Shown here: positions 32,242 through 36,903 of the stretch, one piece after another
How positions within the stretch are numbered: the first letter of the stretch is position 1
Layout of the letters: each line of letters begins with the position of its first letter
NCBI GenBank assembly: GCA_963736925.1
Contig: CAVTQP010000001.1
Location: forward strand, 134,159-198,158
Direction: 5' to 3'
Source: an uncultured Actinomycetes bacterium
GTDB lineage: Bacteria > Actinomycetota > Acidimicrobiia > Acidimicrobiales > CAVTQP01
Length of the DNA: 64,000 nt
Position numbers and translations under genes: made by a program
The notes under the pieces: generated by a model
What the model was told of the DNA's origin: nothing
What the model saw: the letters and a program-made list of their open reading frames with translations, nothing else
Database searches by the model: none

Positions 32242-35200
32242 GAGAACGAGGATATAAACAGCAATGGATCATTATACTATAACATCTAGGGGGGCTAGAT
32301 GACTGAGATTCAACTATGGGAACAGGTTTGTCTATAGGCGATTTCGATGAGTAGAGCTCGTGCGAGGTACTGATGGCATTGTGGGTATGGCTTTCTGCGA
32401 TATAGTGTATAACACGGAGCGATTGCTACGTTCACGTACGACGCACACTGCAGATCAGCGGAGATTGGACGCTGAGTGGCGAGTACACGGGCTGTGTTGA
32501 AAAGACGAGAAGTGTGGCTAGATGTTCCTCATCTCATAACAGCTGGTGCTGTCGTCCTACGCTGCTCGGCTCGCTTTATGCGGCGTGCGCGATCAACTCT
32601 CTCAGGAGCGACGCTGACCTCCACCACTGGGGGTGACGACTCACCACTAACTGATCTCGGCCACGGCCACTGCCCCTAGGGCGAGCGCTCGATGGCGTGC
32701 GAACGCGCTAGCCGCGATACAGCAGCGCTGCAATGAACGTGCGTGTGCAGAGGGCTTTGCAAGTTATGCACAGAAACGACGACTAGGCGTTTCACGAGCC
32801 AAGCTGACACAACTTAGAACGCCTCTCACACGGATACAGAGAGTCTGACAACGGGATATCTCTGCCGCTGGGGAGCTACGTCGAAGATAGCCTCGGAGTC
32901 TTCGCGAAGTAGATGGCGCTAGGCACTCAGCGAAGATGATGACGCGTACGGGCGAGGCTTATGTTCTCGCGTAGACGGATGGTAGGAGAGCTGCGCGCAG
33001 CAGCGACGACTCCGCATCTACATGAACATTATCTCGCTGCTAGAGTGGAGAGATTGACTGTCTGTCGATCTAGAGACGGTAGACGATGGGCGCTTACATG
33101 GCGACGATACGAGCTTACGTCGCTTGCGACTTCTTTGACTAGTCGGCGTTGGAAGCTTTTGCTGGTGTGTAGATAGAGGGCTTAGAGCTTGAGACAGACT
33201 TGCTACGTTGGACGACATGGCTCGATATGAGGACTTGGACGATTTTGTGCTGTACTTAGAAGCTGAGGAAGAGAGATTAGCTTTGTCGTGTGGCTTGCGA
33301 GGCTTTGAGCGTGGACTTTCATCACGTGGGCTGTAGGTGCATCGACGCTCTCGGTGTACGTGTGAAAGGGCTGCCACTACCAGCTCACGCGTTGGCACAT
33401 GGACGCTGGCATCTAGGGGAACGTGGATGAGCTGACTTGGTGGACGCAAGAGAGCTGTTCTACTCGGGGCTGCTGATGTGTTGGCGTTGACGCTATGAGG
33501 CTCGGTTTTCTGGAGTTTGCATCCTCAATACGCGGCTCGCGGCGCGGACTCGAACGCCTCGCATGGAAGATGAGGAGCTGAGTCGTTGGGGGCTAGACTT
33601 GGGAGGTGCTAGGGTGCGAGAGATGGCCTCCTGATGAACTAGGCTCTATTGCTGTCGCTCTCGCTCATCGGGGTGGAGAGATTCGAAGGACTAACGCCAC
33701 GAATCCTCGACGGCTGACGACTTTGTACAGTGACTGTTCGAGCTTTCACCAGCGAGTTGATGCTCAGGAGCAAACGCGAGCAAGCGTCGCTAACAGATTC
33801 GATCAAACAACTCCTCGTTGTCGACACCGAAACCACCACGGACGAAACTCAACGTCTTCTGTACGAGTCGTCTAGGGCGTGCGATCTTACGAGACAGGAT
33901 AGGCGCAGTGTTGGCAGGAAGATTTTCTTACGCTGACGACTGCTTGAGTACTACTTTGAGGGGTTCGCTGTATTGAAGCAGTATGTCGAGAGTCGCAAGG
34001 CTGAGGCTGAGACATCTGACGCTCGCACGACGATCGGACTCCTTCTATTGTCGGCGTGGCTGGAAAAGGTCTTTTGGCGCTACGCTGACTGCAGATGCGA
34101 GCTACGATTGTCGGCTTCAACTTCTCTTAGACCTTTCTCGTCTGGCTCTGTGTCGGCGATGCGATGGATAGTGGCGATGGCGCTTTCAGCGACGAGTTCA
34201 CTTCCAGCTGTGGGAGGGATGTTCTGGTCGCTGCTATGGATGGAGGCTAGACGTACGCGTCAAGAACATCGACTCTAAGAAGGCGCTCAAGCAACTGACT
34301 AACTCACAGCACGTCAACTCGGTCAGGACAGATCTTTTCGAGGGAGCTTCCTCGATTGCGAACTCTGGTGTTCACTCTCACCAGCTCGTCACATTCGCTC
34401 CGTTCAGCTGGCGAGGCTCTCGAGGCTAAGAGGCTGAAGGTCGACGCTTCAGACACGAGAAGATCACGCCGGAGCACGTGGACTACGCTGAGCTGACGTG
34501 GCGACTGCGACGTCGCTCGCGAAGGACTCTCAGCGAGTTTGCGATGCACTTCTCGACATGTCTCCGGTTCACGCATTTTCTCCGGCTTCTTTGCGAAGGG
34601 GTACCTCGATGCAATGGGCGTCGTTCTCATGTTGGAGCGCTAACTGGACTTCTCAAAGGACATTCTCGGATGGTAGATGTCTGCCTTCTATGGCGGATGC
34701 TCGGAGTGCTGCATTCGACGAGTTCTGATTCTCGTCGTGCTGGTCGACTGTACGAGCATGTATCTCACGGTCGACGCTTTGATGGAGTTGTGGAAGCTGC
34801 TCACTCAGCTGAGATAGAAATCCAGGCGACGAGAGACGTTCAGAAGTAATTGAGGACGTGACGCTGGACGACTGCTTCGACAAGTCAACTGGCTGAAGCT
34901 GGTGGGGATCGCTAAGATTGTGCTCGAGGCTGACTGTCTACTTGTCCGCTCGCAGTACGAGGACGACGCCGCTTACAACATCGGCCTCAACTTCCTAACG
35001 GCGTCGACTCGATAAGGGAAGACGCTGCCTTCTGGTACACGCTGCTCGACTGGTGGCGTCTAAGCCACCGACCGGCAAGGCTCTCAAAGTGGAGCGAGCT
35101 ATCTGGTTCGAGGGCAGAGGAAGATTGCGCGATCTTCGATCGCTACATTTTCGCGGCGAGGTCAAGGTGGACTCTCGGCGAGACGACTTTTTCAGGACGA

Positions 35201-35450
35201 TGGTAGAGCAACGTCAGCAGCTGGAGGACAATCGTTCGCTCGGAAACTTCCTCAAGATCTTTGCTAACGCTGGAAGCTACGGAATCTTTGCCGAACAGGT
35301 CCGCTATGAGCTGGCGAAGGGCGAGCGTGAAACGACGACGATCTACGATCGGCATGAGGAGCGTGGGAAAAGCAAGTTAACAGCTCTCGAAGATCTCGGC
35401 CGCTTCTGTTTTCCACGGTTGCGGCGTGCATCACGGCGCTGCCCGCTTGA
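32170..35450 (+). other. strand-asymmetric hypermutation-like tract (CC-depleted, CTAG/TAG-rich, about 50% GC)
   Basis: My hand counts give about 17 CC vs about 61 GG dinucleotides in 32221-33120, and 2 vs 26 in 33181-33480. I found about 15 CTAG in 32.2-33.7 kb. The flanking DNA is about 65-70% GC with CC at least as frequent as GG. Confidence 0.6.
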
Positions 35451-36903
35451 TGTTGACTATGCTCGAACGATGCGTTACCGATCTGGGCGAGGCATGAGTG
35501 TTCTGCGACACCGACAGCATGGCGCTCGTCGCAACCGAGGAGCAAGGACTCATCCCCTGTCCGAGTGGGCTCTACAGACTCGATGACGGCGCGAGGCCGT
35601 TCAGGCTCTTTCATTTGCTCGAGTAGAGGCCATCCGTGAACGATTTGCAGCGCTGAACACAGACGGCACCGAAGCGGTGCCGGGGACGATCCTCAAGCTG
35701 GAAACGACGAGTCTCTGCTACGCCGTCTCGGCGAAGAGGTACGCGATCTTCGACCTTGGCGATGACGGGCTGCCGAAGGTTCAGCCTGGCTACTTCAGCG
35801 AACACGGTCTCGGCTACCTGCTCAACCCGGAAACACTCGACGAGCCTTCTACAGAGGAGGACGAAGAGGCCGAGCAACAACCTACGTGGGCGCCGGAAAG
35901 AAGGAATGGATCCGTCAGGCGTGGGAGTGGATCATCGCCAAGCACGCTTACGGGCTCGAAGCTCCCGAGCCGGCGTGGTTCGCTCGGCCGGCGTTGACGC
36001 AGCTTCGTGTATCCACGCCAACGGTGGCCCGACCCTTCGAGACGTTCAACCGGGGGAAGCCGTACCCGGAGCAAATAAAGCCGTTCAACTTCATTTTGGC
36101 GGCGACGCCGGTTATGTCGCTATCCGGTAGGTGTCGCCTTGTTGCTCCGTACGAAACCGACCCTTCCAAATGGGTGCACCAACCGTGGAAGAACGTGTAC
36201 CAACCTGACTCGCCCGAAAGTTACATCGTTGCGGAGGATCAAGCCGTTGACTGTGGGATGGAGACGTTTGCCAACGAAGTGATCGTCAAGTCGTACGGGA
36301 GCATCGTTCGCCGGTTCCCCCGCCACCCCGAGCCAAAGTGTGTGGGACCCGATGGGGGCGTGTGCGGGGCCGAGGGTGGGTCTGTTGCAACGTCGTCACG
36401 TGCGGCCGCTGGAAGTCAGGCACATCGGGAAAGAAACCAACAAGCTAGAGGAGGTTCAACGGGGTCTCGCCTCCGCCGGAGACACATACGCCGACTATGG
36501 CGACCCCGAAGCCACTAGCCGATTGGATCTTGTGCTGCACGTGCTCGACGGTTTGTCTGCGGCTGCCATAGCCGAACAAACCGGCATCAGCGTGAGCGAG
36601 GTTGAGCGTGTGCGGGCCGGAACCAAGCCTCACCGGAAAAAGTTCGCCGTGTTAGTTCGGATAGCGTGCCAGCTTGCCAGCATCCGCATACTCCCCAGAG
36701 GACCTAGGGCTGGGGAGCCGGTGCGCGGGTGGGAACTGAGGCTCGCCTCCTGGCTGCGAGATAACGACCGAGTATGCGCGCTTGGAGAGTGCACCAGAGC
36801 AGTTGAACGCGGCGAACGGTACTGCTGTACCCACTCCCACACAGCCGCTCGAAATCGGAAACGAGATTGGGCTCGTAATAGAAAACGCACTTCACATGTC
36901 TAA
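33730..36903 (+). pseudogene. polB: family-B DNA polymerase, multiply disrupted
   Basis: The motifs are in canonical order but in different frames. ExoI is LLVVDTETT (33823, frame 1). An ExoII-like GFNF..DLSRLA lies at about 34113-34150 and is broken. Motif A is VLVDCTSMYLTV (34743, frame 0). Motif B is KIFANAGSYG (35254, frame 1). Motif C is FCDTDS (35501, frame 2). The KxY region is CYAVSAKRYAIF (about 35730, frame 1). The C-terminal region with an HTH runs to 36903. In-frame stops include TGA 33934 and TAG 34674. Confidence 0.75.

What the first reader, a model, noticed from the sequence alone, without database searches (positions are those of the whole stretch)
33730..36903. PolB is dead while Cas1 looks intact, and the polymerase subtype is unresolved
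Seen: the polymerase motifs occur in the canonical order ExoI, ExoII, A, B, C, KxY. They lie in frames 1, broken, 0, 1, 2 and 1, with at least 3 in-frame stops. The downstream part (35886-36903) changes frame again and carries an HTH-like segment (AAAIAEQTGISVSEVERVRAG). The KxY region (CYAVSAKRYAIF) and compact spacing look more like protein-primed or primer-independent PolBs than archaeal replicative-type PolBs. Inference: the element is now non-autonomous for self-synthesis. If the PolB is of the pPolB/piPolB type, its pairing with a bacterial Cas1 would be a noteworthy module combination.
Basis: partly seen in the sequence, partly recalled or inferred. Interest (0 to 1): 0.6.

Follow-up and report, generated by a model that had tools for sequence, protein, structure and literature searches.

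The report
Decayed family-3 casposon remnant
This is the eroded remains of a known kind of bacterial jumping gene (a casposon): about twenty frameshifts and stop codons have wrecked its DNA polymerase gene, and its Cas1 integrase gene is still an open frame but is also damaged, so it is an ordinary genomic fossil.

Summary
Frameshift-aware alignment to intact relatives gives 18-23 frameshifts plus 3-5 in-frame stops; intact control genes give 0-2. The HTH-bearing downstream part is the C-terminal extension of the same protein, conserved across the family.

The locus is the remnant of a family 3 (bacterial) casposon. Its Cas1 nests with the published family 3 references in a tree. A shattered HNH gene lies directly upstream of PolB. 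In related genomes, Cas1 sits upstream of PolB on the opposite strand in 70 of 83 loci.

The polymerase is not a piPolB: it has canonical CDTDS and KxY motifs. It is the usual casposon polymerase, whose predicted fold is closest to protein-primed PolBs. The Cas1 pairing is therefore the family's rule, not a new combination.

"Cas1 intact" holds only superficially. The ORF is open and the four catalytic residues are present. However, two compensating frameshifts put the conserved zinc ribbon out of frame, and 8 of 58 near-invariant residues are substituted.

Decay is local, avoids homopolymers and is GC-to-AT biased, so it is real rather than an assembly artefact. Verdict: an ordinary fossil, of low interest.

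The parts
30170..31738 (-). Cas1 (casposase) ORF, 522 aa. It is open and keeps the catalytic E183, H267, D279 and E282, but it is damaged (see the next part).
   Evidence: Pfam Cas_Cas1 hit at 1.6e-34. Relatives are 37-43% identical and of similar length, and were aligned. The best solved-structure hit of the family profile is 6OPM, the M. mazei casposase, at 6e-39. A neighbour-joining tree places it in the family 3 casposase clade. 8 of 58 near-invariant residues are substituted.
30443..30650 (-). Segment of the Cas1 ORF read out of its native frame. The zinc ribbon CAGCGVELAHHTRTWCPDC (30508-30564) is encoded in another frame, bracketed by two compensating frameshifts at about 30634-30654 and 30416-30443.
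   Evidence: Frameshift-aware alignment to P0123, P0126 and P0135. The codon-position GC phase shifts within this segment. An HMM built from 65 other Cas1 proteins matches the alternative frame on its zinc-ribbon positions, i-E 2.5e-6. The four Cys are at least 90% conserved in relatives.
30245..30307 (-). C-terminal helix-turn-helix of Cas1, back in the ORF frame.
   Evidence: Alignment A1, HMM alignment, weak Pfam HTH_31 hit.
33277..33700 (+). Remnant of the HNH-nuclease gene that precedes PolB in intact relatives. It is broken by several frameshifts and stops (VACEALSVDFHHVG...CHYQLTRWH).
   Evidence: Frameshift-aware alignment scores 93 against L001's gene, versus at most 52 for shuffled DNA. 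tblastn gives 33366-33635 at E 0.002. The cluster consensus hits Pfam HNH at E 0.0025, below threshold. The gene is present in 63 of 65 related loci.
33730..36903 (+). PolB pseudogene. All Exo and Pol motifs are in order, with 18-23 frameshifts and 3-5 in-frame stops. 32 of 159 near-invariant residues are substituted.
34641..34643 (+). In-frame stop TAA. Others are at 34674 (TAG) and 35495 (TGA, replacing a conserved Trp), plus 35013 (TAA), which appears only in the alignments to P0001.
35886..36903 (+). C-terminal extension of the same PolB, conserved in the family and ending in an HTH at 36559-36621. It carries one further frame change at about 36372.
   Evidence: Intact relatives P0002-P0004 carry HTH_3/HTH_31 hits at residues 970-1017. 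Invariant columns continue to residue 950 of P0004. The window HTH gives a weak Sigma70_r4_2/HTH_23 hit.
31739..38500 (.). Tract of lower G+C (48-62%, against 66% for the rest of the window) with no ORF of 220 aa or more. It holds the decayed element interior. The outer limits of the element were not determined.
   Evidence: No other gene of the related elements is detectable here.

Best explanation
The locus is a fossil of a family 3 (bacterial) casposon in a high-G+C, probably actinobacterial, chromosome.

In active relatives, a Cas1-type casposase carrying a C-terminal zinc ribbon and HTH is transcribed divergently from an operon of an HTH protein, an HNH nuclease and a roughly 1000-1100 aa family B polymerase with its own C-terminal HTH. 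By inference from studied archaeal casposons, Cas1 integrates the element and the polymerase copies it.

In this window the operon side has decayed by ordinary neutral, GC-to-AT-biased mutation. The HTH gene is gone, and the HNH and PolB genes are riddled with frameshifts and stops. Cas1 has decayed less. Its reading frame stays open, which is easy in 68% G+C DNA. However, it has lost its zinc ribbon to a pair of frameshifts and carries substitutions at near-invariant positions. The element is therefore neither autonomous nor, most probably, mobile at all.

Shown here: the lesions, the homology, the family placement and the conserved synteny. Inferred: the functions of the intact genes, the loss of Cas1 activity, and the order of events.
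For: PolB lesions:
- 18-23 frameshifts plus 3-5 stops, against 0-2 in intact control genes.
- 32 of 159 near-invariant residues are changed; intact loci keep at least 89%.
- At conserved sites, GC>AT changes number 30 and AT>GC changes 13, mostly C>T and G>A.

HNH remnant at 33277-33700: alignment score 93, against a null maximum of 52.

Cas1:
- Pfam hit at 1.6e-34.
- The zinc ribbon lies in another frame.
- 8 of 58 near-invariant residues are changed, P = 1e-4 against the intact baseline.

Family placement:
- In a neighbour-joining tree built with the Cas1 reference sequences of Krupovic et al. 2014 (Additional file 2), the window's Cas1 sits inside the clade holding AceAut-C1, StrAlb-C1 and the Saccharopolyspora spinosa Cas1. 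NitAL212-C1 and HenMar-C1 are basal.
- It is 37-41% identical to those references, 22-27% to families 1 and 2, and 17-21% to CRISPR Cas1.
- AceAut-C1 is annotated 'Cas1-Zf', and StrAlb-C1 has an HNH gene directly upstream of PolB.

Synteny:
- 465 related loci were found in species-representative genomes.
- Cas1 lies 2-4 kb upstream of PolB on the opposite strand in 70 of the 83 loci held; 10 of the 13 exceptions lack upstream flank.
- The four-gene core is present in 63-65 of 65 loci.
- Cas1 and PolB of the window share the same nearest relative, L001.

Local decay rather than error: there is no ORF of 220 aa or more across 31738-39062 in an otherwise gene-dense window, and the frameshift sites are not in homopolymers.
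Against: - No terminal inverted repeats or target-site duplication could be found, either in the window or in most intact relatives. The ends of the element, and hence formal proof of 'transposon', are missing.
- Cas1 carries far fewer disabling lesions than the operon side: 2-4 where about 14 are expected, Poisson P = 7e-5 to 1.5e-3.
- Cas1 keeps host-like GC3 of 0.80.
- Cas1 is 10.7 G+C points richer than PolB. In 65 intact loci this difference averages 2.9 points and never exceeds 8.4.
The two halves therefore did not decay in step. I explain this by later inactivation of Cas1, but that is inference.
- The frameshift-corrected window PolB does not itself reach any curated Pfam PolB model. 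Its identity rests on family homology, the motifs and the fold of a relative.
- No read-level data were available.
Confidence: 0.87

Rival explanations
1. The frameshifts and stops are assembly or sequencing errors and the PolB ORF is really intact.
For: Most inferred frameshifts are single-base losses (17 of 23), the commonest class of long-read error. No reads were available to check.
Against: - The damage is confined to about 31.7-38.5 kb, while flanking genes have long intact ORFs.
- None of the 23 sites lies in a homopolymer run.
- There are 3-5 stop codons and 32 substitutions at near-invariant residues, which indel errors cannot produce.
- G+C and the codon-position signal have decayed.
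- The substitution spectrum is the usual GC>AT bias.
- The neighbouring HNH gene is equally broken.
Confidence: 0.02
2. After the polymerase died, Cas1 was kept by selection, either domesticated by the host or retained as the transposase of a non-autonomous element. This would explain why it stays open, G+C-rich and in frame at its C-terminal HTH.
For: - Lesion density in Cas1 is 4-7 times lower than in HNH plus PolB.
- GC3 is 0.80, like host genes.
- The G+C drop begins exactly at the Cas1 start codon.
- All four catalytic residues are kept.
- The second frameshift restores the frame of the HTH, which the M. mazei casposase needs for integration (PMC6977970).
Against: - The zinc ribbon, whose four Cys are at least 90% conserved in relatives, is destroyed.
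- 8 of 58 near-invariant residues are replaced, more than in any of 65 intact relatives. These include G258R and D260Y next to the catalytic His, and R273Q and S275A next to the catalytic Asp/Glu.
- Loss at conserved sites in Cas1 (14%) is not significantly lower than in the dead PolB (20%), Fisher P = 0.33.
- An out-of-frame run of 64 codons at this G+C content stays stop-free about a quarter of the time (my estimate).
Confidence: 0.08
3. Two elements of different age lie side by side: an old PolB-bearing remnant and a younger Cas1 from another copy, as in tandem casposon insertions.
For: - The difference between Cas1 and PolB in G+C and in lesion density lies outside the range of 65 intact loci.
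- Tandem casposons in which one copy has a multiply interrupted PolB are described in Methanosarcina (PMC4779613).
Against: - Orientation, order and spacing (Cas1, then 2 kb, then HNH, then PolB) match the single-element architecture.
- Both genes have the same nearest relative, L001, at similar identity: 43-45% for Cas1 and 47% for PolB.
- No second Cas1 or PolB fragment is present in the window.
- Cas1 itself is also decayed.
Confidence: 0.03
4. The polymerase belongs to a different self-replicating element, either a pipolin (piPolB) or a Toil-like tectivirus provirus that captured Cas1.
For: - Fold matches include tectiviral polymerases such as Streptomyces phage WheeHeim, 7e-12.
- The Streptomyces 'family 3 casposons' were re-read as Toil-like proviruses with Cas1 (PMC5894146).
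- Pipolins do occur in Actinobacteria.
Against: - The piPolB signature motifs are absent.
- No tyrosine integrase is part of the conserved core; Cas1 is.
- tblastn of two intact family members finds nothing in 50,697 phage records or 72,556 plasmids.
- No capsid or packaging gene is among the conserved genes, and nothing downstream of PolB is conserved.
Confidence: 0.02

Closest known systems
Family 3 (bacterial) casposons: AceAut-C1, StrAlb-C1, NitAL212-C1, HenMar-C1 (Krupovic et al. 2014, PMC4046053)
   Same: - Cas1 falls in the same clade.
- The Cas1 + zinc finger + HTH architecture matches AceAut-C1.
- An HNH gene lies directly upstream of PolB, as in StrAlb-C1.
- A conserved HTH protein is part of the family core.
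- The host is bacterial.
   Different: - This copy is a fossil. PolB and HNH are shattered, the HTH gene is undetectable and the zinc ribbon of Cas1 is out of frame.
- No TIR or TSD was found.
- Cas1 identity to the published references is only 27-41%.
Inactivated casposon copies in Methanosarcina tandem arrays (Krupovic et al. 2016, PMC4779613)
   Same: A casposon copy whose polymerase gene contains multiple internal stop codons.
   Different: Those are archaeal family 2 elements that sit next to an intact copy. Here no intact copy is visible in the window.
Family 2 casposons and the 'PolB_CDTDS' polymerase cluster (A. boonei; Kazlauskas et al. 2020, PMC7544198)
   Same: - Motif C reads CDTDS.
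- The cluster is described as related to both the main PolB group and the protein-primed group. This fits the fold matches, which go to both.
- The HNH and HTH accessory genes are shared.
   Different: - Cas1 is only 23-27% identical to family 2 casposases.
- I could not compare the polymerases directly because no family 2 PolB sequence was obtainable.
Protein-primed PolBs of His1 virus, tectiviruses and phi29, and family 1 casposons
   Same: - Best viral fold matches: His1 at 2.6e-14 with TM 0.58, then Tectiviridae, WheeHeim and GA-1.
- There is no N-terminal domain before ExoI.
- Relatives hit Pfam PF03175.
   Different: - There is no detectable sequence similarity to phage polymerases by tblastn.
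- There is no sequence-profile hit to any solved polymerase.
- No terminal-protein gene and no TIRs were identified.
- A 300-aa C-terminal extension with an HTH is present.
Pipolins / piPolB (Redrejo-Rodriguez et al. 2017, PMC5695915)
   Same: A self-replicating bacterial element with a divergent PolB related to the protein-primed group.
   Different: The window has the canonical DTD and KxY motifs instead of TTD and KTRG, and Cas1 instead of a tyrosine integrase.

Membership tests
Casposon (superfamily) | Cas1 homologue of the casposase clade, not a CRISPR Cas1 | tested here: met
   A neighbour-joining tree with the reference alignment of Krupovic 2014 places it among casposon Cas1 proteins. 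It is 37-41% identical to family 3 references and 17-21% to CRISPR Cas1. The family profile's best solved-structure hit is the M. mazei casposase 6OPM at 6e-39, although a CRISPR Cas1 (4N06) is close behind at 5e-36.
Casposon (superfamily) | Family B DNA polymerase gene in the same element | tested here: met
   A PolB pseudogene lies 2 kb from Cas1. The same pairing occurs in 70 of 83 related loci.
Casposon (superfamily) | Terminal inverted repeats and a target-site duplication | tested here: inconclusive
   No convincing inverted repeat brackets the element in the window, in L002 or in most of 50 related loci. The one exception is L016, 27 nt at E 7e-5. Short or imperfect repeats could have been missed.
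Casposon (superfamily) | No CRISPR array next to Cas1 | tested here: met
   No multi-copy direct-repeat family of CRISPR type occurs in 29000-39500. Other cas genes were not searched for specifically; among the flanking ORFs scanned against Pfam, none matched a Cas family.
Family 3 casposons | Cas1 in the family 3 clade | tested here: met
   This is a distance tree without bootstrap support, so the fine branching order is not reliable.
Family 3 casposons | [quoted passage not shown] | tested here: inconclusive
   An HNH remnant is present at 33277-33700, but the family consensus reaches Pfam HNH only at E 0.0025, below threshold. The HTH-protein gene is conserved in 65 of 65 relatives but is not detectable in the window.
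Family 3 casposons | PolB grouping with family 2/3 casposon polymerases | not testable with these tools
   [quoted passage not shown] No reference PolB sequence could be fetched.
piPolB (pipolins) | PolC motif SxTTDG (first Asp replaced by Thr) | tested here: not met
   The window has VFCDTDSMALV. D622, T623 and D624 are invariant in 28 relatives. The definition comes from PMC5695915.
piPolB (pipolins) | KTRG (KH-X8-KTRG) in place of KxY | tested here: not met
   The window has SAKRYA. K697, R698 and Y699 are invariant in relatives.
Protein-primed PolB | Match to the Pfam model for organellar and viral PolB (PF03175) | tested here: inconclusive
   Relatives P0002-P0004 score 34-40 bits against a cut-off of 25.8. 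P0001, P0013 and P0018 fall below the cut-off. The corrected window copy gives no hit.
Protein-primed PolB | TPR1 and TPR2 insertions, a terminal protein and TIR ends | tested here: inconclusive
   In the model, the spacing from Motif A to Motif B (168 aa) and from Motif B to Motif C (85 aa) is compatible with such insertions. I made no residue-level superposition. No terminal-protein candidate is in the conserved core, and no TIRs were found.
RNA/DNA-primed PolB (main group) | N-terminal domain before the exonuclease domain; Pfam DNA_pol_B / DNA_pol_B_exo1 | tested here: not met
   ExoI lies at residues 38-44 of 1106 in P0004. No hit to those Pfam models appears in six relatives. The fold is nonetheless similar to archaeal PolB at E 4e-10.

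The most novel reading that the evidence does not exclude
The Cas1 gene outlived its casposon. After the polymerase operon died, Cas1 was kept by selection for some time, perhaps even after the first frameshift, because the second frameshift restores the essential HTH. That would make this locus a natural snapshot of a casposase being separated from its element, which is the step postulated for the origin of the CRISPR adaptation module.
Probability: 0.08. Interest if true: 0.55.

Novelty: new member of a known kind. Interest (0 to 1): 0.25.

Why it matters
For this locus, little. It is a dead copy of a known type of mobile element, and dead polymerase genes in casposons have been described before.

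The exercise corrects two points that an annotator would get wrong:
- The Cas1 ORF is called as an ordinary 500-aa protein in the public record, yet it reads about 65 codons out of frame and has lost its zinc ribbon.
- The polymerase is not a piPolB.

The by-products are more interesting than the finding itself:
- The Cas1 / HTH / HNH / PolB module occurs in at least 465 species-representative genomes across many soil phyla. The literature I could search speaks of a handful of bacterial casposons.
- The predicted fold of the polymerase is closer to protein-primed polymerases than the 'RNA-primed' label given in 2014 suggests. This bears on how these elements start their replication.

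Tried and rejected
- Pfam and NCBIfam on the separate PolB fragments, and Pfam on the frameshift-corrected protein, gave no polymerase model. The PolB assignment therefore rests on relatives.
- A sequence-profile search of the PolB family against all solved structures returned no polymerase.
- tblastn of intact family members against phages and plasmids found nothing.
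- TIR and TSD searches in the window, in L002 and automatically across about 50 loci found nothing consistent.
- No tRNA gene lies nearby as a possible target.
- I considered strand-specific cytosine-deamination hypermutation of the low-G+C tract and rejected it. The GC skew of the PolB gene (+0.06) and of the Cas1-PolB spacer (+0.15) lies within the range of intact relatives, and C>T (14) against G>A (10) is not asymmetric.
- I considered that the low G+C proves great age and tempered that view. PolB amino-acid identity is only about 4.5 points lower than expected from Cas1 identity, and some intact Streptomyces copies are natively 51-57% G+C.
- The supplement of PMC7544198 was cut when stored, so no PolB_CDTDS member sequence could be recovered.

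Full report
**Setting.** The window is high in G+C (about 66%) and densely coding. The exception is a stretch from 31.7 to about 38.5 kb, where G+C falls to 48-62% and no ORF of 220 aa or more exists. At the left edge of that stretch, on the minus strand, lies a 522-aa Cas1 ORF (30170-31738; Pfam Cas_Cas1 1.6e-34). The reported polymerase remains lie inside the stretch on the plus strand.

**Checking the observation.** The separate fragments hit no curated polymerase model. A stitched translation, however, finds 863 relatives. These are typically 1000-1100 aa; the best is 44% identical at E 7.7e-156, and several carry Pfam PF03175.

I wrote a protein-to-DNA alignment that allows frameshifts.
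- Against four intact relatives, and at several penalties, it gives 18-23 frameshifts and 3-5 in-frame stops between 33730 and 36900.
- Even at a very harsh penalty there are still 20 lesions.
- Two intact homologous genes used as controls give 0 and 2 frameshift calls and no stops.

That region is conserved across the family and carries HTH_3/HTH_31 hits in intact members.

**Real decay or assembly error.** Several results point to real decay.
- The lesions are confined to this tract.
- None of the 23 sites is in a homopolymer.
- 32 of 159 residues that are at least 90% conserved in 65 intact relatives are substituted; no intact relative loses more than 11%.
- Inferred single-base changes at conserved sites are GC>AT 30 to AT>GC 13, mostly transitions.
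- The third-position G+C signal is flattened.

This is the signature of ordinary neutral decay. Only read mapping could prove it, and I could not do that.

**What the element is.** Intact relatives show a fixed architecture. In Pseudonocardia sp. Cha107L01 (locus L002), a 495-aa Cas1 is transcribed divergently from an operon that ends in a 265-aa ORF and the 1106-aa PolB. Metagenomic locus L001 is similar.

A scan of species-representative genomes with a PolB profile found 465 loci. They come from Actinomycetota, Chloroflexota, Acidobacteriota, Gemmatimonadota, Eremiobacterota and other phyla. Of the 83 loci held, 70 have Cas1 2-4 kb upstream on the opposite strand, and 10 of the 13 exceptions simply lack upstream sequence.

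Clustering the ORFs of 65 loci gives a four-gene core: Cas1, an HTH protein, a protein with a C-x2-C...HH...N...C-x2-CH pattern, and PolB. Nothing downstream is conserved. The consensus of the third protein reaches Pfam HNH only weakly (E 0.0025).

This gene set is the one Krupovic et al. 2014 describe for casposon families 2 and 3. Their annotation tables list 'Cas1-Zf' for AceAut-C1 and an HNH ORF directly upstream of PolB for StrAlb-C1. I took the casposon-related Cas1 sequences from their Additional file 2 and built a distance tree. The window's Cas1, sister to L001, sits inside the clade containing AceAut-C1, StrAlb-C1 and a Saccharopolyspora spinosa Cas1. NitAL212-C1 and HenMar-C1 are basal, and families 1 and 2 and CRISPR Cas1 lie outside.

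In the window, the HNH gene survives as a multiply broken remnant at 33277-33700 (alignment score 93 against at most 52 for shuffled DNA). The HTH gene and any cargo are undetectable. I could not find terminal inverted repeats or a target duplication, either here or in most intact relatives. The ends remain undefined, and that membership criterion is inconclusive.

**The polymerase subtype.**
- piPolBs are defined by SxTTDG and KTRG (PMC5695915). The window and all relatives have CDTDS and K-R-Y, so it is not a piPolB.
- Kazlauskas et al. 2020 name a 'PolB_CDTDS' cluster after exactly this Motif C. They note that it is related to both the main and the protein-primed groups and that it includes the Aciduliprofundum casposon polymerase.
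- An AlphaFold model of P0004 (pLDDT 84) matches archaeal PolBs, Pol II, RB69 and phi29 among solved structures (4e-10 to 1e-8).
- Among viral models, its best matches are protein-primed enzymes: His1 at 2.6e-14 with TM 0.58, a tectivirus, and Streptomyces phage WheeHeim.
- ExoI sits about 40 residues from the N-terminus. Only the protein-primed Pfam model is hit, and that only by some relatives.
- At sequence level there is nothing in phages, plasmids or solved structures.

My reading is that this is the standard family 2/3 casposon polymerase, structurally nearer the protein-primed group than its 2014 label implies. The priming mode is unknown.

**Is Cas1 intact?** Only on the surface. Relatives have a Cas1 domain, then a CxxCG...CxxC zinc ribbon with at least 90% conserved Cys, then an HTH. 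In the window, the ORF frame shows no Cys there. The ribbon (CAGCGVELAHHTRTWCPDC, 30508-30564) is encoded in another frame, between frameshifts near 30634-30654 and 30416-30443.

Three independent lines support this.
- The four Cys and their flanking residues align to relatives.
- The codon-position G+C phase shifts in exactly this segment.
- An HMM built without the window sequence matches the alternative frame on its zinc-ribbon positions, i-E 2.5e-6.

In addition, 8 of 58 near-invariant residues of the catalytic domain are replaced: A187S, W212F, G258R, D260Y, R273Q, S275A, G312W and C314V. That is more than in any intact relative, with P = 1e-4. The four catalytic residues and the C-terminal HTH remain.

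**Unequal decay.** Cas1 has 2-4 disabling lesions where about 14 would be expected at the rate seen in HNH and PolB (P = 7e-5 to 1.5e-3). It keeps GC3 of 0.80. It is 10.7 G+C points richer than PolB, against a mean of 2.9 and a maximum of 8.4 in intact loci. Yet loss at conserved sites does not differ significantly between the two genes (14% against 20%, P = 0.33), and both share the same nearest relative.

I favour later inactivation of Cas1 within one element. Retention of Cas1 by selection, or juxtaposition of two copies, cannot be excluded but have less support.

**Comparison with what is known, and verdict.** Degraded casposon copies with multiply interrupted polymerase genes are already described (PMC4779613). 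The locus is a new, dead member of a known family. Its interest is low.

The survey results are worth following up separately. They are the wide distribution of this module in soil bacteria and the protein-primed-like fold of its polymerase. I found no published bacterial census beyond a handful of elements.

Noticed in passing
Loci L004-L083 (genome-contig scan): The Cas1(-Zn ribbon-HTH) / HTH protein / HNH / PolB module occurs in 465 species-representative genomes across Actinomycetota, Chloroflexota, Acidobacteriota, Gemmatimonadota, Eremiobacterota and others. The papers I could search describe only a handful of bacterial (family 3) casposons.
   Followed up: partly
Model of P0004 (L002:10001-13321): The predicted fold of the family 3 casposon polymerase matches protein-primed PolBs (His1, tectiviruses, GA-1) better than archaeal replicative PolBs, and it lacks an N-terminal domain. 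The 2014 description called family 2/3 polymerases RNA-primed-like.
   Followed up: partly
L061, L068, L075 (Streptomyces contigs of 13.4-14 kb): The Streptomyces copies sit on contigs made up almost entirely of the element. Their PolB is 51-57% G+C in a genus of about 72% G+C (genus figure from my own knowledge). They may be extrachromosomal or repeated, and may correspond to the 'Cas1-encoding Toil-like proviruses' of Yutin et al. 2018.
   Followed up: no
window 32011-32238 (+): A 76-aa ORF with a weak NikA-like ribbon-helix-helix match (Pfam E 6.5e-4, below threshold) lies inside the decayed tract between Cas1 and the HNH remnant. It has no counterpart in related elements.
   Followed up: no
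window 30172-30206 and 36945-36979: A 35-nt direct repeat (74% identical) lies at the 3' end of Cas1 and 42 nt past the PolB stop, so it brackets the two genes. Similar chance matches are common in this G+C-rich DNA, so it is probably not meaningful.
   Followed up: partly
window 36904-39061, especially 37800-38400: A further 2 kb has no sizeable ORF, and contains a second low-G+C patch (50-55%, GC skew about +0.2). It may be decayed cargo of the same element or of another one. Nothing recognisable was found.
   Followed up: partly
window 39062-44722: Large ORFs of 588, 396 and 597 aa have no Pfam match, apart from a weak MarR-type HTH in the first. They may belong to another mobile element next to the casposon remnant.
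   Followed up: no
L058, L065, L076, L011: Some related loci carry a second Cas1 or Cas1 fragments within 10 kb of the first. L058 has two full copies and L065 an inverted 81-nt Cas1 fragment. This suggests tandem or nested insertions, as described for archaeal casposons.
   Followed up: no
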